From the NCBI GenBank assembly GCA_050732875.1, contig JBOHRQ010000008.1, positions 1,384-65,383 on the forward strand: a DNA stretch of 64,000 bases. The letters run 5' to 3'. Below, piece by piece: positions 25,406-47,125 of this stretch. How positions within the stretch are numbered: the first letter of the stretch is position 1; every line of letters starts with the position of its first letter. This DNA comes from Gemmatimonadota bacterium. Lineage in GTDB: Bacteria; Gemmatimonadota; Gemmatimonadetes; JACCXV01; JAHWKZ01. The translations under genes and the position numbers were made by a program. Under the pieces are notes generated by a model. It searched no databases. It saw only the letters and a program-made list of their open reading frames with translations, and was not told the origin of the DNA.

Positions 25406-28400
25406 ATGCTGAAGCGCGTCATCGAGTGGTCCATCCACAACAAGCTCCTCGTCCTTCTGGCAACGGCGGCGGTCGCCGTCTTCGGCCTCGCGGCGATGCT
25501 GACGACGCCGGTCGACGCGATCCCCGACCTTTCCGACGTCCAGGTCATCATCGTGACTGACTGGGCGGGCCAGGCGCCCCAGGTGATCGAGGATCAGGTC
25601 ACCTATCCCCTGTCGACCGAGATGATCAAGGTGCCGCGCACGAAGTTCGTCCGCGGCGTGAGCCAGTTCGGCCGCTCGTACGTCTACGTCGTCTTCGAGG
25701 ACGACGTGGACCTCTACTGGGCGCGCTCGCGGGTGCTCGAGTACCTGAACACGGTCCGGGACAGGCTGCCGGCGGCGGTCCAACCGCAGCTCGGCCCCGA
25801 CGCCACGGGGGTCGGATGGGTTTACCAGTATCTCCTCGTCGACACGACCGGCACCTACAACCTGGCTCAGCTCCGCTCGCTCCAGGACTGGACCGTTCGC
25901 TTCCAGCTTCAGGCGGTCGACGGAGTGGCCGAAGTGGCCACCCTCGGCGGCTTCGAGAAGCAGTACCAGGTCGACATCGTCCCGGAGCGGTTGCTGGCCT
26001 ACGGCATCCCGGTCTCGCAGATCGTCCAGGCGATCCGGGAATCGAACCAGGACGTGGGCGCGCGCGCCATCGAGCTCGGCGGCGCGGAATTCATGGTGCG
26101 CGGCCTGGGGTACATCGGCGGCCTCGAGGACATCCGGGCGATCTCGGTCGGGTCGACCCCCGCGGGAGTACCCCTGACGGTGGACGATGTCGCCGACGTC
26201 CATCCGGGCCCGCAGGAGCGCCGAGGGATCGCCGATCTCAGCGGCAAGGGCGAGGTCGTAACCGGCTTCGTCGTCATGCGCTACGGCGAGAACCCGCTGG
26301 CCGTCATCGAAGCGGTGGAAGAGAAGATACGCGAGGTCGAGAAGGGGCTGCCGGCGGGCGTGACGATCGTGGCCGGCTACGATCGCAGCAACCTGATCCA
26401 TCGCGCGATCGACACGCTCAAGGAGAAGCTCCTCGAGGAGTCGGTGATCGTCGCCCTGGTCGCGATGGCGTTTCTCCTCCACGCCCGCTCGGCGCTGGTC
26501 GCGATCGTGACCCTGCCGCTCGGGATCCTCATGGCGTTCATCGCCATGCGCTGGCTCGGAGTCAACGCGAACATCATGAGTCTGGGCGGGATCGCGATCG
26601 CGATCGGGGCCATGGTCGACGCGGCGATCGTCATGATCGAGAACATGCACAAGCACATCGAGCGGAACGAACGCGAGGGCGGGCGCCTGTCCATCTGGCA
26701 AATGGCCGCCGACAGCGCCGGCGAGGTCGGTCCGTCGCTCTTCTTCTCGCTCCTCATCATCACGGTGAGCTTCGTTCCTGTCTTCGCGCTGACCGGCCAG
26801 TCGGGACGCCTCTTCGAGCCGCTCGCCTGGACGAAGACGCTGGCGATGGCGGCGGCGAGCCTCCTCTCCGTCACCCTGGTCCCCGTCCTCATGGGGTACT
26901 TCATCCGCGGCCGGATCCGGGCCGAGGAGGAGAATCCGGTGAACCGCGCTCTCCTCCGGATGTACCGGCCGACGATCGGCTGGATCCTCGACCGGCGGAG
27001 CTGGGTGATCGTCGGTGCGGCGGCGCTCCTTCTCGTGACCGTCATTCCGTGGACTCGCCTCGGCTCCGAGTTCATGCCCCCCCTGAACGAGGGCGCGATC
27101 ATGGACATGCCGTCCCTTTTCCCCGGCGTCGGAACGGCCCAGGCCCGGCGGATCTTCCAGCAGCGCGACTCCGCCATGGCGACCGTGCCCGAGGTCGAGA
27201 TGGTGCTCGGCAAGATCGGCCGCGCAGAGTCGGCGACCGACGCCGCGCCCATGTCGATGATCGAATCGGTCGCGATCCTGAAGCCCGAAGAGGAGTGGCG
27301 TGAGGGAATGACGCAGGAGGAGATCGAGGCCGAGCTCGACCGCGTCACGAAGACGCCCGGTGTCGCCAACATGTGGTCGCAGCCGATCAAGAACCGGCTG
27401 GACATGCTGGCGACGGGGATCAAGACGCCGGTCGGGATCAAGGTCTTCGGGCCCGACCTGGCCACGCTAGAGCGGATCGGGAAGGAGATCGAAGGACTCC
27501 TTCCGACGGTCAAGGGGACGCGCTCGGTCTACGCCGAACGGGCGGTCGGCGGCCGCTACCTGGAGATCGAGGTCGACCGGGCCACGATCGCACGCTACGG
27601 GCTCTCGGTCGAGGACGTCCAGGAAACGCTCATGACCGCGGTCGGCGGTGTGGAGGCGACCGAGACAATCGAGGGACGGGAGCGCTATACCGTCCTCGTC
27701 CGCTATCCTCGCGGCCTGCGGAACGATGCGGAGGCGATCGCCCGCGTGCTGGTTCCGACCCCGGCCGGCGCCCAGGTTCCGCTCGGGCAGCTCGCCGAGA
27801 TCCGGTTCGATGACGGGCCGGACATGATCAAGAGCGAGGACGCACGGCTCAACTCGATCGTCTACGTCGACATCGGGGACCGCGACATCGGCTCCTACGT
27901 CGAGGAGGCGCGGGAGCTCCTCGACCGCTGGCTGGACCTTCCTCCAGGCTACACTCTCGAGTGGTCCGGCCAGTTCGAGTACATGCAGGAGGCCAACCGC
28001 AACCTTCGGTACATGGTCCCCGTCACGGTGGGGATCATCTTCCTCCTCCTCTTTCTAAACTTCGGCTCGCTCATCGAGAGCCTGATCGTGATGGTCTCGC
28101 TTCCGCTGGCACTGGTCGGCGGGGTGTGGCTCATGTGGGCGCTGGGGTACAACCTGAGCGTCGCGGCCGGTGTGGGGTTCATCGCGTTGGCCGGGGTCGC
28201 GGCCGAGATCGGAATCGTCATGCTCGTCTACCTCGACCAGGCCTACCACCGGGGCGTGCTGGCGGGCACGATGCGGGATCGGCGCGATGTCTTCGCGGCC
28301 GTGCGGGAGGGTGCTGGGGAGCGGGTCCGGCCGATCATGATGACCGCCACCGCGGTGATCGGCGGGCTCCTGCCGATCCTATGGGGCCACGGAACCGGCG

Positions 28401-28594
28401 CCAGCGTCATGAAGCGGATCGCCGCGCCCATGGTCGGCGGGATGGTCTCGGTCACGGTGCTGGCGCTCCTCGTGATCCCCGCCCTGTACTCGTTCTGGCG
28501 CGAGCGTCAGCTAGTGCGGCAGAGCCGCCGCCAGCGGGTGACGGATGCGATGGGCGACGAAGCCGCCACACCGGCCCTCACAGGTCTATCTTGA
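25406..28594 (+). CDS. cusA: CusA/CzcA-family heavy-metal efflux RND transporter
   Basis: 1062 aa with 12 transmembrane helices (TMs) and two large periplasmic loops. 'MLKRVIEWSIHNKLLVLL' is a classic CusA/CzcA N-terminus. Confidence 0.95.
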   Translation: MLKRVIEWSIHNKLLVLLATAAVAVFGLAAMLTTPVDAIPDLSDVQVIIVTDWAGQAPQVIEDQVTYPLSTEMIKVPRTKFVRGVSQFGRSYVYVVFEDDVDLYWARSRVLEYLNTVRDRLPAAVQPQLGPDATGVGWVYQYLLVDTTGTYNLAQLRSLQDWTVRFQLQAVDGVAEVATLGGFEKQYQVDIVPERLLAYGIPVSQIVQAIRESNQDVGARAIELGGAEFMVRGLGYIGGLEDIRAISVGSTPAGVPLTVDDVADVHPGPQERRGIADLSGKGEVVTGFVVMRYGENPLAVIEAVEEKIREVEKGLPAGVTIVAGYDRSNLIHRAIDTLKEKLLEESVIVALVAMAFLLHARSALVAIVTLPLGILMAFIAMRWLGVNANIMSLGGIAIAIGAMVDAAIVMIENMHKHIERNEREGGRLSIWQMAADSAGEVGPSLFFSLLIITVSFVPVFALTGQSGRLFEPLAWTKTLAMAAASLLSVTLVPVLMGYFIRGRIRAEEENPVNRALLRMYRPTIGWILDRRSWVIVGAAALLLVTVIPWTRLGSEFMPPLNEGAIMDMPSLFPGVGTAQARRIFQQRDSAMATVPEVEMVLGKIGRAESATDAAPMSMIESVAILKPEEEWREGMTQEEIEAELDRVTKTPGVANMWSQPIKNRLDMLATGIKTPVGIKVFGPDLATLERIGKEIEGLLPTVKGTRSVYAERAVGGRYLEIEVDRATIARYGLSVEDVQETLMTAVGGVEATETIEGRERYTVLVRYPRGLRNDAEAIARVLVPTPAGAQVPLGQLAEIRFDDGPDMIKSEDARLNSIVYVDIGDRDIGSYVEEARELLDRWLDLPPGYTLEWSGQFEYMQEANRNLRYMVPVTVGIIFLLLFLNFGSLIESLIVMVSLPLALVGGVWLMWALGYNLSVAAGVGFIALAGVAAEIGIVMLVYLDQAYHRGVLAGTMRDRRDVFAAVREGAGERVRPIMMTATAVIGGLLPILWGHGTGASVMKRIAAPMVGGMVSVTVLALLVIPALYSFWRERQLVRQSRRQRVTDAMGDEAATPALTGLS

Positions 28595-28710
28595 CCTGGG
28601 ACAGGCGGGCCTCAAAGAACCGCGTGAGCGCCTCGCACAGCGCGATCCGCACTCCTGGCTTCGTGCTCGAGCTATCGAAGCGACTGCGCGAGGCGAGATT
28701 CACGGCGCAA

Positions 28711-29183
28711 TCAAGTCAGAATCCCCGACTTCTGATAGATTGGGGTCTTCCAAACCGTCGCGACGGCTCTCATCCGGAACCGCCTCTTCAGGTATTGTTC
28801 GATCGCGGCGACGTAGCGCGGGAAGACCTCCCGTGCCTTGCCGACTGCCTGCAGGATGATCCCGTCGTCGATGTTCTCGTACTCGTGGATGATTCGGTTT
28901 CGAAGGCCGGCGGACGGGGGCAGGGATTCTGCAAGTTGGCTTGGAATCACCTTCTCACGTCCCACGGCGATAAAGCTCTCGAAGTAGTCCAGGGGAGTCT
29001 TCGCGTCCCGGTCGCGCAGGATGTGCAGGTTGATATCGACGGCCGCTTCGACAGTTTCCTGGAGGGCGCGCTCCGTACCTTTCAGCCGGAAGAAGTCCCC
29101 GATGTACTCCTCCAGCGTGAGTCCCTCAATCCCTCGAGATGATCCACATTTCTGCCTATAACGGCGAGCTTCCGCCGCACCAT
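28711..29183 (-). CDS. hepT: HepT-like HEPN toxin (DUF86), apparently disrupted by a 1-nt deletion (-1 frameshift)
   Basis: HEPN R-x4-HxY motif 'LRNRIIHEYENID'. Strong similarity to characterised HepT ('AVDINLHILRDRDAKTPLDYFESFIAVG'). The HepT-like N-terminus 'MVRRKLAVIGRNVDHLEGLRD' (ATG 29183) is in another frame and joins the main frame near 29120. In the main frame only a TTG at 29235 is available as a start. Confidence 0.6.
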
Positions 29184-29200
29184 GGCTGCGTCCAGTGGGG

Positions 29201-29635
29201 TCACGTCCGTTCCGCTGTTCGCCCGATGAAGTCAAGAACCTCTTCTCGCTCCGCCAGGCGGAACTTCCTGGTGTCGGCGTACCGACGGACCGCCAGCGAG
29301 CAGAAGCGAGCGAATGCTCCCGATTCGGCCTCGTACAGTGGCAATCCGTCCTTTGCCACGAACATCATGAGGAGCGGATCGGCCCGGCGGAGGTCTGCGA
29401 TGTCGACTTCCTGGACTCCGAGCACCTGGATAAAACGATTCGTCGCATGCACCGTGTCGAGCTCATCACGCGAGACGATCGCCAGGTCGATGTCTTCGGT
29501 GAACGCTTCATTGCGTGCCGTGGATCCGAACAGGATGATCAGACGGACCTCGAGCTCGCGTCCGATCTCGTTGGCCGCAACCCGGAGACGCTCAATCGAA
29601 ACGGTAGGGCTCGGAGGTTTCATCTCGCGCTGCAT
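29201..29635 (-). CDS. mntA: MntA-like minimal nucleotidyltransferase antitoxin
   Basis: NTase motif 'LFGSTARNEAFTEDIDLAIV' (GS...DxD). It lies immediately upstream of hepT with a 17-nt gap. Confidence 0.7.
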   Translation of the reverse strand: MQREMKPPSPTVSIERLRVAANEIGRELEVRLIILFGSTARNEAFTEDIDLAIVSRDELDTVHATNRFIQVLGVQEVDIADLRRADPLLMMFVAKDGLPLYEAESGAFARFCSLAVRRYADTRKFRLAEREEVLDFIGRTAERT

Positions 29636-29784
29636 GATGCTTGAAGATACTATGCGGAGGAGGAACAAGGATCGGCTGCCCTCGACGCCGCTCACTCCTC
29701 GTGGGGCGGTGAGTCGGTTCCTTCATGCGGCGGGCTCCGTCCTGGCGATCATCGTCGGTAGGGAGCCGCCGGCGGTGGTCCTCT

Positions 29785-29813
29785 TGACCTGGATACCCTA
29801 CAATGGTATAGTA
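29785..29813 (+). promoter_or_regulatory. csoR-copA promoter (TTGACC-16-TATAGT) with overlapping CsoR operator
   Basis: 'TACCCTACaatgGTATAGTA' (29794-29813) closely matches the B. subtilis CsoR box TACCCTACggggGTATgGTA. -35 TTGACC at 29785-29790. -10 TATAGT at 29807-29812, ending 8 nt before the csoR ATG, so the transcript is leaderless. Confidence 0.55.
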
Positions 29814-29820
29814 TAGAATC

Positions 29821-30129
29821 ATGGTCCAGCGCAAGTCTCACGGATACGAACGGGCCCGGGTCAAGCCGGACCTGGAGAACCGCCTCAAGCGGATCGAGGG
29901 GCAGGTGCGGGGGGTCCAGCGGATGGTGGAGGAGGGCCGCTACTGCGTGGACATTCTGACCCAGATCGACGCCGTCACGGCGGCGCTCGCCCGGGTGCAG
30001 GACCGGATCCTCGAGGCCCATCTCAACCATTGCGTCATTGACGCCCTCGAAGGGAGCGACACCGCGAACGTACGAGAGAAAGTCGACGAGGTGGTCGGGC
30101 TGCTCAGGAAGTTCCGGCGGACCGGATGA
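29821..30129 (+). CDS. csoR: copper-sensing transcriptional repressor CsoR (CsoR/RcnR family)
   Basis: Cu(I) ligands in the C...H-x3-C pattern: 'RYCVDIL' and '[10 protein letters not shown]'. The 102 aa are typical of the DUF156 fold. Confidence 0.85.
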
Positions 30130-32498
30130 GCACGAGAACCGCCGCCCCCGTGGCCCCAGAGCGGGAGATCGAGCTCGCCGTCGAGGGAATGCACTGCGCC
30201 TCCTGCGTGAGCCGGGTCGAGTCCGAGCTGACCGCTCTTGCCGGGGTGACGGCCGCCTCCGTCAACCTTGCCACCGACTCCGCGCTGGTGCGGACGGTCT
30301 CCGGGGGGCTGCGCGCGCGGGACCTGGTCGAGGCGGTCCGCCGGGCGGGCTACGAGGCGTCGGTCGTGACCGGGGCCACCCGCGAAGAGGAGGCCCGGCG
30401 GGCCGAGCGCGTGCGCGAGGAGGCGCGGCTCGGGCGCCGCTTCTGGGTCGCCCTGGCGTTCACCGCGCCACTCGTCGTCTTCGAGATGATCCCGCATCTC
30501 CTGATGCCGCTGGGGCTTGACCTCGGCTGGCCGGTTCTCGACCCGCGGGTCCAGCTCCTCCTCGCGACCCCGGTCGTTCTCTACAGCGGACGGCGGTTCT
30601 TCCGCGGGGCCTGGAGCGGTCTCCGCCACCGCTCGGCCGACATGAACACGCTGATCGCAGTCGGAACCGGAACCGCGTACGGCTACAGCGCGGTCGCGAC
30701 CATGGCACCGGGCCTCTTCCGCGCGGCGGGGATCACGCCGTCGGTCTACTTCGAGGCGGCGGCAACGATCGTCACGCTGATCCTGCTCGGCACCTGGCTC
30801 GAGACACGAGCCCGCGGGCGGACGGGGCAGGCGATCCGCGCGCTGCTCGACCTCCGGCCCGAGGTCGCCAGCGCGCGCCGCGACGGGCGCGAGGTCGAGG
30901 TGCCGGTCGAGGACCTGGAGCCGGGCGACGTGCTCGTCGTGCGGCCCGGAGAGCGCATTGCCGTGGACGGCGAGGTCCTCGAGGGCCGGACCACCGTCGA
31001 CGAGTCGATGCTGACCGGCGAGTCCATGCCGGTCGAGAAGGCCCCCGGCGACGCGGTCGTGGGCGGGACGATGAACCGCACCGGAGTGATCGCGTTCCGG
31101 GCGACCAGGGTCGGTTCCGAGACGGCCCTGGCGCAGATCGTCCGTCTGGTCCGCGAGGCGCAGGCGTCGAAGGCGCCCGTCCAGCGGCTCGCCGACACGG
31201 TGGCCGCATACTTCGTGCCCATCGTGATCGCCATCGCGATCGCCACCTTCGTGGTCTGGTTCGTAGTGGGTCCCGAGCCCTCACTGCCCTACGCGGTCGT
31301 GACGGCCGTGGCGGTCCTGATCATCGCCTGCCCGTGCGCGCTCGGGCTGGCGACGCCGACGGCGGTCATGGTGGGCACCGGCCGCGGCGCCGAGCTGGGG
31401 ATCCTGATACGGGACGCCGAGAGCCTCCAGAAGGCCCACGAGCTGGACACCGTGGTGCTGGACAAGACCGGCACGGTGACACGCGGCGCGCCCGCCGTGA
31501 CCGACGTTCTCCCAGCGGCTGGCGTGAGCGACGCCGAGCTCCTCGCGCTAGCCGCCGCTGTGGAGCGGGGCTCGGAGCATCCGATCGGCGAGGCGATCGT
31601 GCGCGCCGCCGAAAGCCGCGCCGCCGCGCCGCCGCCGGCCGCCGACTTCGAGGCGCTGGCCGGCCAGGGCGTCCGGGCCTCGGTGGATGGCCGCGAGGTC
31701 GTGATCGGAACCGCCGTGCTGCTGGCGGAGCGAGACATCGATCTTGTAGATCTGGCTGGAGAGACCGCGCAGGCCGTGGTCGAGCGGTTGGCGGACGCCG
31801 GCAAGACGCCCGTGCTGGTGGCGCGCGCCGGGAAGTTGCTCGGCGCGATCGCCGTGGCCGACACTGTCCAGGAGGGGGCCGCCGAAGCGGTGGCGGCGCT
31901 CCGCTCGCGCGAGCTCGACGTCATCATGATGACGGGCGACAACCCGCGCACCGCCGAGGCCATCGCTCGTCAGGTCGGGATCGAACGCGTCCTGGCCGAG
32001 GTCCTGCCGGAAGAGAAAGAGGAGCGGATCCGCGCCCTCCAGGAGGAGGGCCGGGTGGTGGCGATGGTGGGCGACGGGATCAACGATGCCCCGGCATTGG
32101 TCCGGGCCGACATCGGGATCGCCATCGGCACCGGGACCGACGTCGCTATCGAGGCCGGCGACATCACGCTTATCAAGGCCGACCTGCGCGGCGTCGTCCA
32201 GGCGATCGCGCTCTCCAGAAAGACCATGCGGACGATCCGCCAGAACCTCTTCTGGGCGTTCGTCTATAATGTGCTCGGGATCCCGCTGGCAGCGGGCGTC
32301 TTCTATCCATGGACCGGCCTCCTTCTCGCTCCGTGGGTCGGTGCCCTGGCGATGGTCCTGAGCGACATCTTCGTGATGGGAAACTCGCTGCGGCTGAGGA
32401 CGGTGCGGCTCGGCGGCGCGAGGCGCGGTCCGTCTACAGCGATGACGGGGAACGGGGTTTCCGGCGGAATCGTGACCTCCGGGAGCGCCACGGCATGA
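30126..32498 (+). CDS. copA: copper-translocating P1B-type ATPase
   Basis: ATGA overlap with csoR. Heavy-metal-associated (HMA) domain 'GMHCASC'. 'CPC' in '[13 protein letters not shown]'. 'DKTGTVT', 'MTGDN', '[10 protein letters not shown]'. Confidence 0.95.
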
Positions 32499-33081: not shown

Positions 33082-34428
33082 ATGCTCAATCCTCGACTCG
33101 CTAACGCGCTCGCCGCGCTCGCGCTCTTTCTCCTGGCCTCCCGGCCGACGGCCGCGCAGGAGCACCGCCACCCGGCGCCGCCGCCCGCCGATTCGGCGGC
33201 GATGGTTTCGATGCCCGAAATGGCCATGCGGCCGGGCCTGCTCGGTATCCCTCGCACGCGCGAGGGCTCGGGCACGGCCTGGCTCCCCGACGCGAGCCCC
33301 ATGCATGCCCTGCACCGCCGGGCCGGCGACTGGGAGCTCATGCTCCACGGCAGCCTCTTCGTCCACTACCTCGACGACGGCGGCGATCGCGGCCGGGAGC
33401 AGTTCGGGGCCACCAACTGGATCATGGGGATGGCCCGCCGGCCGGCGGGGGGGGGCGACCTGACGCTCCGTGCCATGTTGAGCGCCGATCCCTTGACCGC
33501 GGACGAATGCGGCTACCCTGACCTCCTCGCGACCGGCGAGTTCTGCGACGGCGAACCGCTCCACGACCGGCAGCATCCGCACGACCTCTTCATGGAGCTG
33601 GCCGGCGTCTACGAGCGGGCGCTCGCGGAGGGTCTCGCGCTCCAGGTCTACGGGGGGCCGGTCGGCGAGCCGGCGCTGGGGCCGGTCGCCTTCCCCCATC
33701 GCGTCTCCTCGTTCCCCAACCCGATCGCCCCGATCGGCCATCACTGGCTCGACTCGACCCACATCGCGTTCGGCGTCGCGACGGCCGGGATCTACGGCTA
33801 CCGCTGGAAAGCCGAGATGTCGCTCTTCAACGGCCGCGAGCCGGACGCCGAGCGCTACGACTTCGATCTCGACGCGCTCGACTCGTACGCGGGACGATTC
33901 TGGCTCCTGCCGAACGACCGGTGGGCGCTCCAGGTCTCGGCAGGACGGCTGAACGAGGCGGAAGTGCACGAAGCCGGCGGCCCGCGCATCGACGTCACGC
34001 GCGTGACCGCGTCGGCGACCTACCACCGCCCGCTGGCGGAGGAAGGGGTCTGGGCCGGCACGATGGCCTGGGGACGAAACCGCGAAGGAAGCGAGGCGAC
34101 CCATGCCTTCCTCGCCGAGGCCAGCCTCAACCTCGCCGACCGCGACGTCTTCTACGGCCGGGTCGAGGTCGCGGAGAAGACCGGCGGAGATCTGGTTCTG
34201 CCGGAGGAGCTCGAGGAGCGGTCGTTCACGGTCGGGAAGCTCGGGCTCGGCTACGTACGCCAGCTCGATCCCGTGGCCGGCCTCGTGCCCGGCATTGGCG
34301 CCGGCATCAGCGTTTCGCGCGTGCCCGACCAGCTCGAAGCGTTCTACGGCTCGACGACCCTGACGGGATTTCAGGCCTTCTTCCGGCTGCGGCCGGCGCC
34401 GATGACGGCGGGAGGCCACGCGCACTGA
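33082..34428 (+). CDS. secreted His-rich hypothetical protein downstream of copA (possible outer-membrane/periplasmic copper-handling protein)
   Basis: Signal peptide 'MLNPRLANALAALALFLLASRPTAAQ'. 'EHRHPAPPP', 'MVSMPEMAM' and 'DRQHPHDLFMEL' are His/Met motifs. 448 aa. No terminal aromatic residue. Confidence 0.55.
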   Translation: MLNPRLANALAALALFLLASRPTAAQEHRHPAPPPADSAAMVSMPEMAMRPGLLGIPRTREGSGTAWLPDASPMHALHRRAGDWELMLHGSLFVHYLDDGGDRGREQFGATNWIMGMARRPAGGGDLTLRAMLSADPLTADECGYPDLLATGEFCDGEPLHDRQHPHDLFMELAGVYERALAEGLALQVYGGPVGEPALGPVAFPHRVSSFPNPIAPIGHHWLDSTHIAFGVATAGIYGYRWKAEMSLFNGREPDAERYDFDLDALDSYAGRFWLLPNDRWALQVSAGRLNEAEVHEAGGPRIDVTRVTASATYHRPLAEEGVWAGTMAWGRNREGSEATHAFLAEASLNLADRDVFYGRVEVAEKTGGDLVLPEELEERSFTVGKLGLGYVRQLDPVAGLVPGIGAGISVSRVPDQLEAFYGSTTLTGFQAFFRLRPAPMTAGGHAH

Positions 34429-34503
34429 TGGCCGCCGTGGGGCATTGTGCCTGGCGGGCGCCGGGGGTGGATCCGGCACCCACCACGTAGACAGGAGAGG
34501 CGG

Positions 34504-44654: not shown

Positions 44655-44897
44655 ATGAAGACGATTTCGGCCACCGAGGCCCGACGCCTCCTCTACCGTC
44701 TCCTCGACGAGGTGACGGTCACGAGCGAGCCGGTCCAGATCACCGGGAAGCGCGGCAGCGCTGTGCTCCTCTCGGACGCGGACTATCGCTCTATCCAGGA
44801 GACTCTCTACCTGCTCTCCATCCCCGGCATGCGCGAGTCGATCCGGGAAGGTATGGCGGAGCGCATCGAAGACTGCCTCGAGGAGCTCGACTGGTGA
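44655..44897 (+). CDS. yefM: Phd/YefM-family antitoxin
   Basis: 'MKTISATEARRLLYRLLDEV...PVQITGKRGSAVLLSDADYRSIQETLYLLSIPGMRESI'. Confidence 0.85.
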   Translation: MKTISATEARRLLYRLLDEVTVTSEPVQITGKRGSAVLLSDADYRSIQETLYLLSIPGMRESIREGMAERIEDCLEELDW

Positions 44898-45160
44898 AGC
44901 CCTGGCGGGTCGTCTTCACCCGCCAGGCTCGAAAGGACGCGAAGAAGCTGACGGCTGCGGGGCTGAAGCCCAAGGCCGAGTACCTGCTTGACATCCTTCG
45001 CAGAGATCCTTTACAAAGCCCGCCCCCGTTCGAAAAGCTCCTCGGCGACCTGTCGGGAGCGTATTCGCGCCGTATCAACGTGCAGCACCGTTTGGTCTAT
45101 CAGGTTCTCGAAGCCGAGAGAACCGTCAAGGTTCTGCGGATGTGGACGCACTACGAGTAG
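44894..45160 (+). CDS. yoeB: Txe/YoeB-family toxin (mRNA interferase)
   Basis: GTGA overlap with yefM. 'WRVVFTRQARKDAKKL', 'LSGAYSRRINVQHRLVYQV', 'VKVLRMWTHYE'. Confidence 0.85.
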   Translation: MKPWRVVFTRQARKDAKKLTAAGLKPKAEYLLDILRRDPLQSPPPFEKLLGDLSGAYSRRINVQHRLVYQVLEAERTVKVLRMWTHYE

Positions 45161-46167
45161 GAACGTCGGGGAAACCCTCTCTTCCAGACCCCCTCCATCA
45201 GCATAAGACCTCGCTTGATCGACCTCGTGGCATGCGACGCTTGCGACTCAAAATCATTCCCTCGCGGAACGCGAATGGAAACGCCGTTTTCAGACAGTTG
45301 GATGACCTGGAGGAGAGATGACTGGTGCAGCAGCATGGAATCCTTGCTATAGGTCAAGGACGCCCACGGCATGCCCATCGAGCGTAGCTTTCCCTTCACC
45401 CCGCCTGCCGACTTGCTGGATCCCTGAGATGATTCGAAAAGGTCAGTGAAAGGAAGGTACGTTCTCTTCTTTCGTTGCTTACGAATGCGGTCGACCCATT
45501 CGGAGAGATCGAGGTCCTTGATCAGCCGCTCGGTCATGGCCCTCCGCGCATCCAGGGCCTTTTCATACCGCTCGCGGTCCAATTTTGCCTCCGCGTCGCT
45601 GACGATCTCGATCTCGCCCAACTCTCGTTCGTGATGCTCTCGATAGGGGCCCATGGCGCGAACTAACTCGCGCTGCCAGCGATAGTCGAACAGCATGTCA
45701 AGCATGCCAGGTTCGAGGCGATTCTCCAGTAGTAGAACATCCTCTTCCAGACACCAGGCGCAGTAAGCTTTCAGGCGATCGCGGATTTCCTCCGGGGGTT
45801 CATCCACAGGGATGTCAGCGAAATCCCGGCTCTCCGGATCGCCACCTCGCCAGCGCGGGTTGCCGATGGTTCCGATGTGAAGCTCAAGTTCAAAGAGCGG
45901 GCGGTTGAGAAGATCGAGCAGTAAAGAGCTCTCTTCCCTGAGCGCACTGCGCACGGCGCTCAGCAAGAGGAAATGCTTCGCCCAAAGGGCATACCATCCT
46001 ACCGAGGGGCCGCTTATGGGCGCCTGCTTGAGGAACTGCGCGATTCGGAAAGACCATTCGCTGGCCTTTAGCAACTCGCGCTCGAGACCTTCCGTGTTCT
46101 GTAGCTTTTCCTCGAGTTTGGATCTGTCCCACGGCGGGATTACGAAATCACCAGGAATGGGCGTCAT
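45151..46167 (-). CDS. hypothetical protein (338 aa) in a low-GC island
   Basis: ATG 46167 ('MTPIPGDFVIPPWDRSKLEEKLQ'). GC is visibly lower than the flanks. No recognisable domain. Confidence 0.5.
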   Translation of the reverse strand: MTPIPGDFVIPPWDRSKLEEKLQNTEGLERELLKASEWSFRIAQFLKQAPISGPSVGWYALWAKHFLLLSAVRSALREESSLLLDLLNRPLFELELHIGTIGNPRWRGGDPESRDFADIPVDEPPEEIRDRLKAYCAWCLEEDVLLLENRLEPGMLDMLFDYRWQRELVRAMGPYREHHERELGEIEIVSDAEAKLDRERYEKALDARRAMTERLIKDLDLSEWVDRIRKQRKKRTYLPFTDLFESSQGSSKSAGGVKGKLRSMGMPWASLTYSKDSMLLHQSSLLQVIQLSENGVSIRVPRGNDFESQASHATRSIKRGLMLMEGVWKRGFPRRSYS

Positions 46168-46204
46168 CCCGCCCACTCGTACCTGAGTGGCACCATCACC
46201 GTGG

Positions 46205-47125
46205 CTATTCCCCGCGCTCAGGCACGAGGCGTGCTGCGCGAACGAACTCGGCCAGGTCCTGGTTGAACCGGTCCGGGTCCTCGAAGAACGGGGCGTGGCC
46301 GGAGCCCTCATAAACGAGCAGCCTGGCGCCGGGGACGGTCCCGGCGATGTGCTCGCCCGAGCTCAACATGACGACCCGATCCCCTCCGCCGTGGACGACG
46401 AGGGTCGGCACGCCGATCGAGGCGAGCACATCGTCGTTGTCGAGCTGGCGGCTGAAGAGCGCGAGCCGTACCTCCGGCGGAATCATCATAGCGCTGGCGA
46501 GGGCGATATCGAAGGTTTCATCGTCCATCGGCTGCGCGGTGATCAGACCCAGGAAAGCGCGGGTCGCGTCGATGCTGGTGCGGACGTCTGTGGAGAACAC
46601 GCCGCCCATCAGTTGCAGCAGCTCTTCCCCGAGATCGGCCTGGGCTTCCTCAGTCCCGGCTCTGGACGACACGCCCACGAAGACGATGCCGCCGAGCGCA
46701 TCGTCGCCGTGCGAACGCAGGTAGTCGGCGATGACGTAGCCGCCGTAGGACCAGCCCACGAGCACGGGTCGCTCGATCGCCCTGGCCTCGATCACCGCGG
46801 CGATGTCCTCGGCCCACAGGGCGGAGTCGGTGTAGGCTGCCGCGTCCAGCGGCTTGTCGGATGCGCCATGCCCGCGGAGGTCGAGCGCGACCAGCCGGAA
46901 CTCGTCGGCCAGAGGCCCGGAGAATTGCCGCTCCCAGGTGAGGTGGTTCTGGCTGAAGCCGTGGATGAACAGGATGGGCGGTCCGTCCGGGTTGCCGGCT
47001 TCGTAGATCGCCAGATCGAGCCCGCCGCCTCCGGAGATCATCTCCGGGCCCTGGGCGTGAGCCTTCGACCCGGCCGCGAGCGCCAGGCTCACCGCCAGCA
47101 TCGTCATGCCTGCCAGCCTGTGCAT
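46205..47125 (-). CDS. secreted alpha/beta hydrolase
   Basis: GGAAGGGAG then 8 nt then ATG. Signal peptide. 'ILFIHGFSQN', nucleophile elbow 'GWSYGG', 'LVVHGGGDRVV', 'GHAPF'. Confidence 0.8.
   Translation of the reverse strand: MHRLAGMTMLAVSLALAAGSKAHAQGPEMISGGGGLDLAIYEAGNPDGPPILFIHGFSQNHLTWERQFSGPLADEFRLVALDLRGHGASDKPLDAAAYTDSALWAEDIAAVIEARAIERPVLVGWSYGGYVIADYLRSHGDDALGGIVFVGVSSRAGTEEAQADLGEELLQLMGGVFSTDVRTSIDATRAFLGLITAQPMDDETFDIALASAMMIPPEVRLALFSRQLDNDDVLASIGVPTLVVHGGGDRVVMLSSGEHIAGTVPGARLLVYEGSGHAPFFEDPDRFNQDLAEFVRAARLVPERGE

What the first reader, a model, noticed from the sequence alone, without database searches (positions are those of the whole stretch)
28595..29820. MntA/HepT toxin-antitoxin cassette inserted between cusCBA and csoR-copA, with hepT apparently frameshifted
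A minimal nucleotidyltransferase (GS...DIDL) and a HEPN R-x4-HxY toxin lie on the opposite strand, wedged between the two copper-export operons. The stretch looks lower in GC than its flanks. The HepT N-terminus (MVRRKLAVIGRNVDHLEGLRD, ATG 29183) and the rest of the protein (LTLEEYIGDF...RNRIIHEYENID...) are in different frames. A single-base deletion in the GGGAC run near 29120 would restore a contiguous ~155-aa HepT. So the toxin is either inactivated while the antitoxin is retained (toxin-antitoxin decay on a metal-resistance island), initiated from an unusual TTG with a non-homologous N-terminus, or this is a homopolymer sequencing error.
Basis: partly seen in the sequence, partly recalled or inferred. 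Interest (0 to 1): 0.6.

Follow-up and report, generated by a model that had tools for sequence, protein, structure and literature searches.

The report
Decayed HepT toxin beside intact MntA
A small, foreign-looking toxin-antitoxin gene pair sits between two copper-resistance operons of a Gemmatimonadota genome; its toxin gene is broken by a real one-base deletion (and probably a second one-base insertion) while the antitoxin gene is intact, which is an ordinary case of toxin-antitoxin decay.

Summary
On the minus strand lie mntA (29635-29201) and hepT, which starts at GTG 29204 in a 4-nt GTGA overlap with the mntA stop. They form a Class I type VII HEPN/MNT pair.

A profile of 12 intact 144-145-aa homologues matches two reading frames. 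Positions 2-27 match the start frame (E 8e-7) and positions 23-142 match another frame (E 2e-53).

One base is missing at GAGGG (29135-29131).

New here: a TGA in the start frame lies exactly 144 codons from the GTG. This implies a second lesion, a +1 insertion in 28787-28773, and it explains the 20-aa C-terminal tail of the annotated ORF.

The same sequence occurs in two MAG contigs and in Logan assemblies of two SRA runs, so a random error is unlikely.

The cassette has GC 0.61 against 0.69 for the window. It is flanked by an 11-nt direct repeat and fills a slot that holds other cargo, or nothing, in relatives.

Verdict: hepT is a pseudogene next to a retained MntA. GenBank's 174-aa TTG-start "toxin" is a mis-call. 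Low novelty.

The parts
25406..28594 (+). cusA (RND copper/silver efflux pump), full length. Its stop TGA (28592-28594) lies inside the left direct repeat.
   Evidence: ORF of 1062 aa. Aligns over residues 1-1055 at 83% to L009 with no indel. PF00873 listed for the same gene in L001.
28589..28599 (+). Left copy of the 11-nt perfect direct repeat TCTTGACCTGG. It contains the cusA stop codon.
   Evidence: Family D11. These are the only two copies in the 64-kb window. Chance expectation is 0.0014 for both copies within 15 nt of the two borders.
28600..28769 (-). 3' spacer of the cassette, downstream of the canonical hepT stop. It includes a 12-nt inverted repeat (28629-28640 / 28684-28695) and the 20-codon read-through tail of the annotated ORF (28711-28769).
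   Evidence: Inverted repeat I5. No intrinsic-terminator match. Nucleotide homology to other mntA-hepT loci stops at about 28785.
28770..29204 (-). hepT pseudogene at its canonical extent: GTG 29204 to TGA 28772-28770. That is 435 nt, the same length as the intact homologue genes.
   Evidence: The start-frame TGA falls at codon 145. Homologue genes L004, L006 and L008 are all 435 nt.
29136..29204 (-). hepT codons 1-23 in the start frame (MTPLDAAMVRRKLAVIGRNVDHL). This is helix alpha-1.
   Evidence: Profile positions 2-27 match at E 8e-7. The AF2 model of intact homologue P0002 places alpha-1 at residues 3-24, pLDDT 94-98.
29131..29135 (-). Lesion 1: one base missing within GAGGG. The exact position cannot be resolved. 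It moves the reading frame by -1.
   Evidence: Single 1-nt gap in the DNA alignment against three intact homologue genes. The protein alignment places the junction between DHLE and IEGLTLEEY.
28788..29130 (-). hepT body in the second frame (IEGLTLEEY...RNRIIHEY...EQYL). It carries the RX4HXY catalytic and AMPylation motif.
   Evidence: Profile positions 23-142 match at E 1.7e-53. PF01934. PDB 7AE9 E 4.6e-36 and 5YEP_B 1.8e-19.
28773..28787 (-). Lesion 2 (inferred): one extra base within AGAGGCGGTTCCGGA. It removes the canonical stop from the reading frame. For example, an extra T in GGTTCC would give an ancestral ...YLKRRSG*.
   Evidence: Start-frame stops lie at codons 139 and 145, and total gene length is conserved at 435 nt. 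The frame-2 match ends at profile position 142 of 144.
28711..29235 (-). The 174-aa ORF from TTG 29235, as annotated in GenBank (P0001). It has a non-homologous Arg-rich N-terminus and a 20-aa C-terminal tail, and is probably not a real product.
   Evidence: The TTG lies inside mntA, with AGG only 3 nt upstream. The next in-frame start is at codon 91.
29201..29635 (-). mntA, an intact minimal nucleotidyltransferase antitoxin (GS-X9-DID, then a further conserved Asp). Its stop overlaps the hepT start as GTGA.
   Evidence: It is 53-55% identical to the MntA partners of the intact homologues over its full length.
29636..29781 (-). 5' spacer of the cassette. The mntA promoter region is presumed to lie here but is not identified.
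   Evidence: No sigma-70-type match on the minus strand. The region lies inside the low-GC segment.
29782..29792 (+). Right copy of the 11-nt direct repeat TCTTGACCTGG. It contains the csoR -35 box TTGACC (29784-29789).
29784..29812 (+). csoR promoter: TTGACC, 17 nt, TATAGT. A CsoR-type operator ATACCCTACAATGGTAT (29793-29809) sits between and over the two boxes. The ATG follows 8 nt after the -10 box.
   Evidence: Promoter scan gives 10 of 12 matches, against 0.2 expected. Equivalent operators are ATACCCCTTGGGGGTAT in L027 and ATACCCCATTAGGGTAT in L009.
29821..32498 (+). csoR (29821-30129) and copA (30126-32498), a copper-sensing repressor and a P1B-type ATPase. These are the right-hand flank.
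   Evidence: PF02583 at 1e-30. HMA, E1-E2_ATPase and Hydrolase domains for the same gene in L001.

Best explanation
A 1.18-kb, horizontally acquired Class I type VII toxin-antitoxin cassette (mntA-hepT) was inserted between the cusA stop codon and the csoR promoter. An 11-nt sequence that contains both signals was duplicated in the process.

**How an intact pair works.** MntA neutralises the HepT HEPN RNase by oligo-AMPylating the tyrosine of RX4HXY. hepT is translated by coupling to mntA termination at the GTGA overlap.

**What has happened here.** hepT has lost one base at codon 24-26, immediately after helix alpha-1. Ribosomes starting at GTG 29204 therefore make only a 40-residue peptide. 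The RNase body is no longer in frame with any credible start. A second one-base insertion at codons 140-144 has probably also removed the canonical stop.

hepT is therefore a recently inactivated pseudogene. mntA persists as an intact orphan antitoxin gene.

**Shown:** the identity of both genes, the frame split and its position, the conserved total gene length, identity of the sequence across four assemblies, the composition, and the variability of the slot.

**Inferred:** loss of toxin activity, the second lesion, the direction of the event (insertion rather than loss in relatives), and continued MntA activity.
For: **Family membership.**
- Pfam, NCBIfam and PDB matches.
- Motifs RNRIIHEY in HepT and GS-X9-DID in MntA.
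- The neutralisation mechanism is taken from PMC7641770.

**Frame split.**
- The two-frame profile match gives E 8e-7 and 1.7e-53, with the junction at profile positions 23-27.
- The DNA alignment shows a 1-nt gap.
- All 12 close homologues are contiguous at 144-145 aa.
- Their genes overlap mntA by 4 nt, as here.

**Second lesion.** A start-frame TGA lies at codon 145. That gives a 435-nt gene, identical in length to L004, L006 and L008.

**A real allele.**
- 100% identity in GCA_973786185.1 and in Logan contigs of SRR27067780 and SRR27067781.
- cusA and copA flank the cassette without indels.
- The 90% cluster of the annotated protein has a single member, so no intact near-identical allele is on record.

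**No rescue route.**
- Frame 2 has no in-frame start between TTG 29235 and codon 91.
- No stable RNA structure follows the shift site (z = 0.51).
- There is no meaningful Rfam match.

**Helix alpha-1 is a core element.** The AF2 model has alpha-1 at residues 3-24 with pLDDT 94-98.

**Insertion.**
- GC is 0.607 against 0.689, and GC3 is 0.72-0.77 against 0.86-0.91.
- The 11-nt direct repeat sits exactly at the cusA stop and the csoR -35 box.
- In L027, cusA runs directly into the csoR promoter.
- The same slot holds unrelated cargo in L009, L091, L093 and L096.
- Homologous TA pairs sit in unrelated contexts.
Against: - No reads were inspected. The four assemblies are 100% identical and may all derive from one project and one sequencing chemistry. 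A systematic error is therefore not formally excluded.
- Apart from the indels, hepT shows no decay. There are no in-frame stops across about 115 codons. All catalytic residues are kept. It departs from family-invariant columns at only 3 positions, which is within the range of intact members. The lesion is therefore either very recent, or the body is still expressed in some way.
- The second lesion rests on a length coincidence. I estimate roughly a 5% chance of a stop at that exact out-of-frame position.
- An 11-nt repeat somewhere in 300-nt flanks occurs by chance in 9.5% of random trials. Only its placement is unusual.
- The homologous TA loci show no flanking repeats above chance.
Confidence: 0.8

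Rival explanations
1. The missing base is a sequencing or assembly artefact, and hepT is intact in the organism.
For: - The gap lies next to a short G run (GAGGG).
- The rest of the gene is undamaged and keeps every invariant residue.
- All assemblies that carry it are 100% identical and could share one data source.
Against: - The sequence is identical in two MAG contigs and in two independent Logan assemblies from different run accessions.
- A 3-nt run is not a typical error site.
- The 3.2-kb cusA and 2.4-kb copA on either side align to relatives end to end without indels.
- Repairing this base alone gives a 164-aa protein with an atypical 20-aa tail. A second, independent error would be needed to recover the 144-aa family form.
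Confidence: 0.07
2. The 174-aa ORF from TTG 29235, as annotated in GenBank, is a functional HepT variant with a replaced N-terminus.
For: - The ORF is open.
- It still scores above the NCBIfam cutoff (82.6 bits against 60).
- It keeps RX4HXY.
- AGG lies just upstream of the TTG.
Against: - It lacks the whole of helix alpha-1, one of the three long core helices. In its place are 35 non-homologous, Arg-rich residues.
- The homologous N-terminus is still recognisable in the other frame, directly after the mntA stop (E 8e-7). That is expected for a recent frameshift and not for an evolved alternative start.
- The TTG lies 32 nt inside mntA, with only 3 nt of spacing to AGG.
- All 12 close homologues use the 4-nt stop-start overlap.
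Confidence: 0.06
3. Full-length HepT is made at a low level by -1 ribosomal slippage. A P-site tRNA-Gly would slip from GGA to GGG at G_GGA, ahead of a TTG codon. This would give a deliberately attenuated toxin.
For: - The required shift is -1.
- G GGA allows re-pairing of a single tRNA.
- The downstream frame is intact.
Against: - There is no X XXY YYZ heptamer.
- There is no stimulatory structure (z = 0.51; 141 of 200 shuffles fold at least as well).
- There is no Rfam element.
- None of the homologues has a shift, so it is not a family trait.
- The slippage product would still carry the aberrant C-terminal tail.
Confidence: 0.03

Closest known systems
Aphanizomenon flos-aquae HEPN/MNT toxin-antitoxin pair (PDB 7AE2, 7AE6, 7AE8, 7AE9)
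   Same: - It is the best solved relative. The HepT family profile aligns to the HEPN toxin over residues 1-140 (E 4.6e-36), including the N-terminal helix and LRNRxVHEYD.
- MntA matches the MNT antitoxin (E 2.3e-5).
- The arrangement is two genes with the antitoxin first.
   Different: - Here the toxin gene is split between two reading frames after helix alpha-1, and its canonical stop is out of frame.
- The host is Gemmatimonadota rather than a cyanobacterium.
- No biochemistry is available.
Shewanella oneidensis HepT/MntA (SO_3166/SO_3165; PDB 5YEP, 6M6U/V/W), the founding type VII system (PMC7641770)
   Same: - It pairs PF01934 with PF01909/PF18765.
- HepT carries the RX4HXY motif and MntA the GS...DXD motif.
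- The expected mechanism is oligo-AMPylation of the motif tyrosine.
   Different: - The relationship is more distant (E 1.8e-19 and 1e-4).
- The MntA spacer is 9 residues rather than 10.
- The toxin is not intact.
Degenerate chromosomal toxin-antitoxin loci with orphan antitoxins (reviewed for type II in PMC7354431)
   Same: - The toxin is inactivated by a frameshift while the antitoxin stays open.
- The locus sits at a variable junction between operons.
   Different: - This is a type VII pair with an enzymatic antitoxin rather than a type II pair.
- Whether MntA still serves any purpose here, for example against incoming HepT toxins, is unknown.

Membership tests
Type VII (Class I HEPN/MNT) HepT/MntA toxin-antitoxin system | The toxin belongs to the HepT/DUF86 HEPN family (PF01934 / NF047751). 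| tested here: met
   PF01934 at 3.2e-22 and 78.9 bits against a cutoff of 23.5. PDB HEPN toxins at E 4.6e-36.
Type VII (Class I HEPN/MNT) HepT/MntA toxin-antitoxin system | RX4HXY RNase/AMPylation motif in the toxin (PMC7641770). | tested here: met
   RNRIIHEY is read directly in frame 2. R, H and Y are invariant columns in alignment A1.
Type VII (Class I HEPN/MNT) HepT/MntA toxin-antitoxin system | The antitoxin is a minimal nucleotidyltransferase with a GSX10DXD motif (PMC7641770). | tested here: met
   NF047752 at 65.2 bits against a cutoff of 60. PF18765 and PF01909. The motif reads GS-TARNEAFTE-DID, so the spacer is 9 residues, not 10. Two of the three aligned MntA partners of intact homologues (L004, L006) also have a 9-residue spacer; L008 has 10.
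Type VII (Class I HEPN/MNT) HepT/MntA toxin-antitoxin system | Adjacent genes on the same strand, with the antitoxin upstream. | tested here: met
   The mntA stop and hepT start overlap as GTGA at 29204-29201. The same 4-nt overlap occurs in L004, L006 and L008.
Type VII (Class I HEPN/MNT) HepT/MntA toxin-antitoxin system | A contiguous toxin reading frame encoding the complete HEPN domain. | tested here: not met
   Profile positions 2-27 and 23-142 lie in different frames. There is a 1-nt gap against intact genes. The canonical stop is in the start frame only.
Type VII (Class I HEPN/MNT) HepT/MntA toxin-antitoxin system | Toxicity of HepT and its neutralisation through AMPylation by MntA. | not testable with these tools
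   This needs expression, toxicity and mass-spectrometry assays.
Insertion sequence / transposon | Target-site duplication, terminal inverted repeats and a transposase. | tested here: not met
   An 11-nt direct repeat is present. No terminal inverted repeats appear at 28600 or 29781 in the repeat scan. No ORFs other than mntA and hepT have family matches.
Programmed -1 ribosomal frameshift site | A slippery X XXY YYZ heptamer, a downstream stimulatory structure, and conservation among relatives. | tested here: not met
   The sequence CTC GAG GGA TTG has no such heptamer. The downstream fold gives z = 0.51. All homologues are unshifted.

The most novel reading that the evidence does not exclude
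The 1.18-kb mntA-hepT unit may be a minimal mobile cassette that lacks a transposase. It would insert, or be captured, with an 11-nt duplication (TCTTGACCTGG) at operon junctions. The cusA|csoR boundary would then be a recurrent landing site that takes different cargo in different Gemmatimonadota lineages. Alternatively, the broken hepT may still be expressed at a trace level by single-tRNA -1 slippage.
Probability: 0.06. Interest if true: 0.5.

Novelty: new member of a known kind. Interest (0 to 1): 0.13.

Why it matters
Its main value is as an annotation correction and a small evolutionary snapshot.

- GenBank lists this ORF as an intact 174-aa type VII HepT toxin. It is better described as a pseudogene with one certain and one probable indel. 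Counts of 'active' HepT toxins or defence systems in this MAG would therefore be inflated.
- The locus shows an enzymatic-antitoxin TA pair caught just after toxin loss.
- The junction between cusCBA and csoR-copA is a variable cargo slot in Gemmatimonadota.
- Nothing here changes what is known about HEPN/MNT systems.

Tried and rejected
Rejected in favour of GAGGG 29135-29131. Frame 2 already matches the homologues from IEGLTLEEY.
- **ATG 29183 as the start.** Rejected. GTG 29204 gives MTPLDAA..., which matches the homologue N-termini and the GTGA overlap.
- **Structure prediction of the repaired protein.** I modelled intact homologue P0002 instead.
- **Relaxed constraint on hepT.** The window protein has 3 unique departures from family-invariant columns, against 0-4 for intact members. 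This is not informative.
- **A closer intact allele.** None exists. The next-best protein is 63% identical, and the 90% cluster has one member.
- **An empty-site or near-identical relative.** I looked through CusA relatives in genomes and CsoR relatives in metagenomes. No relative is closer than 83% (CusA) or 82% (CsoR). None of the 160 loci carries MntA/HepT.
- **Flanking repeats around homologous TA pairs.** Only 8-9-nt matches were found, which is chance level. The TA family as such shows no duplication signature.
- **Integron cassette reading.** The 12-nt inverted repeat downstream of hepT has no GTTRRRY-type core on inspection. Dropped.
- **RNA elements or terminators in the region.** Nothing was found.
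- **Literature search for the run and assembly accessions.** No paper was found.
Full report
**What is in the sequence**

On the minus strand between cusA (25406-28594, +) and csoR (29821-30129, +) lie two small genes.

The upstream gene is mntA.
- It spans 29635-29201 and encodes 144 aa.
- It is a minimal nucleotidyltransferase: Pfam Polbeta 8e-11 and NTP_transf_2 4e-6.
- It matches the NCBIfam MntA_antitoxin equivalog at 65.2 bits against a cutoff of 60.
- It matches the solved MNT antitoxins 7AE2_B (2e-5) and 5YEP_A (1e-4).
- It aligns end to end at 53-55% identity with the MntA partners of three intact homologous pairs. The GS...DxD motif and a further Asp are conserved.

The downstream gene is a HepT-type HEPN RNase.
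- It matches PF01934 (3e-22) and NF047751.
- The family profile matches the HEPN toxin 7AE9 at E 4.6e-36 over residues 1-140, and 5YEP_B at 1.8e-19.
- It carries RNRIIHEY, the RX4HXY motif whose tyrosine MntA oligo-AMPylates in characterised systems (PMC7641770).

**The frameshift is real, and where it lies**

- The window's own annotated product, P0001. It is 174 aa with a TTG start and is labelled 'type VII toxin-antitoxin system HepT family RNase toxin' from a Gemmatimonadota MAG.
- Twelve close homologues at 48-63% identity, all 144-145 aa and contiguous.

Their consensus N-terminus is MTPLDAALVRRKLAVIxRNLxDLA. It matches MTPLDAAMVRRKLAVIGRNVDHLE, read from GTG 29204. From IEGLTLEEY onward the match continues in a second frame.

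I built a profile from the twelve homologues only and searched all 1272 six-frame fragments of the window.
- Profile positions 2-27 hit the start frame at E 8e-7.
- Profile positions 23-142 hit the other frame at E 1.7e-53.

The N-terminal similarity is significant.

A nucleotide alignment with three intact homologue genes contains a single 1-nt gap at CTCGA-GGGATT. The missing base therefore lies in GAGGG, 29135-29131.

The true start is GTG 29204. It forms a GTGA overlap with the mntA stop, and all three examined homologous operons have the same 4-nt overlap.

**A probable second lesion**

In the frame of the GTG start, a TGA lies at 28772-28770, which is codon 145. From start to this stop the gene is 435 nt. 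The intact genes in L004, L006 and L008 have exactly that length.

The homologous body, however, is in another frame at that point. It reads on for 20 extra codons (…KRRFRMRAVATVWKTPIYQKSGILT). No homologue has that tail.

The simplest account is two indels that cancel in length.
- A one-base deletion at codons 24-26.
- A one-base insertion somewhere in AGAGGCGGTTCCGGA (28787-28773).

An extra T in GGTTCC, for example, would give an ancestral C-terminus of …YLKRRSG*. That is the same length as …YLTKQGL* in the homologues.

This is an inference from a length coincidence. I estimate the chance of a stop at that exact out-of-frame position at roughly 5%. Nucleotide homology to other mntA-hepT loci ends at about 28785, which is the canonical gene end.

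**Is it an error?**

The annotated 174-aa protein is encoded on three further contigs.
- A 30-kb contig of a second MAG, GCA_973786185.1.
- Logan assemblies of two separate SRA runs, SRR27067780 and SRR27067781.

The two Logan contigs are 100% identical to the window across the cassette, from 28415 to about 29910. The MAG contig is identical from 18711 to about 33500.

The 3.2-kb cusA and the 2.4-kb copA on either side align to relatives without indels. Random error is therefore very unlikely.

A systematic error shared by one project cannot be excluded without the reads. No intact near-identical allele exists in the protein collection, because the 90% cluster has one member.

**Consequences for expression**

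In this family hepT is translated by stop-start coupling at the overlap. Here, ribosomes that start at GTG 29204 terminate after 40 codons.

The body frame has no start codon between TTG 29235 and a GTG at codon 91. The TTG lies 32 nt inside mntA, with AGG only 3 nt upstream.

An AlphaFold2 model of the closest intact homologue, P0002, has mean pLDDT 93.8. It places helix alpha-1 at residues 3-24. The break therefore falls exactly after alpha-1, and any product of the body frame lacks one of the three long core helices.

There is no slippery heptamer. The RNA downstream of the shift is no more structured than shuffled sequence (z = 0.51). Rfam finds nothing meaningful. Programmed frameshifting is therefore improbable, and none of the homologues needs it.

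The body of hepT is otherwise undamaged. It departs from family-invariant columns at only three positions, within the 0-4 range of intact members. The inactivation is therefore recent.

**Is the cassette an insertion?**

*Composition.*
- The segment 28595-29820 has GC 0.607 against a window mean of 0.689 (sd 0.027). That is in the lowest 1.8% of equal-sized windows.
- GC3 is 0.72-0.77 against 0.86-0.91 for cusCBA, csoR and copA.

*Direct repeat.*
- A perfect 11-nt direct repeat, TCTTGACCTGG, occurs only twice in the window.
- One copy is at 28589-28599 and includes the cusA stop codon.
- The other is at 29782-29792 and includes the csoR -35 box TTGACC.
- From the density of repeats of 11 nt or longer in the window, I expect 0.0014 such pairs within 15 nt of both borders. 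I expect about 0.025 anywhere in the two spacers.
- An 11-mer shared anywhere between 300-nt flanks occurs in 9.5% of random trials. The placement, not the length, is what stands out.

*Relatives.*
- In L027, cusA runs directly into a csoR promoter with the operator ATACCCCTTGGGGGTAT. There is nothing in between.
- In other relatives the same slot holds unrelated cargo:

| Locus | Slot size | Contents |
|---|---|---|
| L009 (83% CusA, 78% CsoR) | 3.5 kb | membrane protein, channel and phosphoesterase genes |
| L091 | about 4 kb | a second P-type ATPase |
| L093 | 0.86 kb | a 151-aa ORF with a hydrophobic N-terminus, opposite strand, no family assigned |
| L096 | 1.6 kb | a flavoprotein reductase |

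- None of the 160 related loci carries MntA or HepT.
- The homologous TA pairs sit in unrelated neighbourhoods.

The cassette is therefore one of several alternative fillers of a variable junction. It preserves both the cusA stop and the csoR promoter and operator: TTGACC, 17 nt, TATAGT, with ATACCCTACAATGGTAT between and over the boxes.

It has no terminal inverted repeats and no transposase. The homologous TA loci have no flanking repeats above chance. The insertion mechanism remains open.

**Comparison with what is known, and verdict**

By sequence, motifs and gene order this is a Class I type VII HepT/MntA module. Its closest solved relative is the Aphanizomenon flos-aquae HEPN/MNT pair.

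It fails one membership criterion, an intact toxin frame. Toxin decay with a retained antitoxin is a familiar fate of chromosomal TA loci.

The corrections concern the start codon, the lesion site, the ancestral length and the second lesion.

The label 'metal-resistance island' goes beyond the evidence. Only the two copper operons are metal-related, and the other neighbours are ordinary or unknown genes.

Novelty is low. The practical point is that the database entry calls a pseudogene an intact toxin.

Noticed in passing
window 44655-45160 (+), with 45151-46311 (-): The other low-GC spot of the window (GC 0.577, the minimum) holds an intact YefM/Phd antitoxin (44655-44897, PF02604 6e-18). A YoeB/ParE-fold toxin (44894-45160, PF06769 3e-10) overlaps it by 4 nt. 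Next to them is a 386-aa ORF with no family match. This is a second, undamaged TA pair in foreign-looking DNA.
   Followed up: partly
window 33500-34481 vs L001 1-1000: The second MAG contig (GCA_973786185.1) is 100% identical to the window for 14.8 kb. It then drops to about 85% identity (139 differences) over its last ~1 kb. That stretch lies inside a 448-aa ORF (33082-34428) with no Pfam match. The cause could be strain-level recombination or a chimeric contig end.
   Followed up: no
window 29784-29821: The csoR promoter ends only 8 nt before the ATG, so the csoR-copA mRNA is probably leaderless or nearly so. The CsoR-type operator spans the -35/-10 spacer and overlaps the first bases of the -10 box, and the pattern is conserved in L009 and L027.
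   Followed up: partly
L027 5640-5790: In this relative the cusA reading frame appears to continue through the csoR -35 box and operator. It ends at a TAA inside the -10 box TATAAT. The efflux-pump gene and the next operon's promoter therefore overlap (frame read by eye).
   Followed up: no
L089-L098 (for example L091 5369-5557), compared with window 30126-30129: The closest metagenomic relatives have a separate short HMA-domain (CopZ-like) gene between csoR and copA. In the window, csoR overlaps copA directly (ATGA) and no separate chaperone gene is present (tblastn only).
   Followed up: no
window 28711-29235 (-), GenBank product P0001: The public annotation calls the 174-aa TTG-start ORF an intact HepT toxin. 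The first 35 residues and the last 20 have no counterpart in any homologue.
   Followed up: yes
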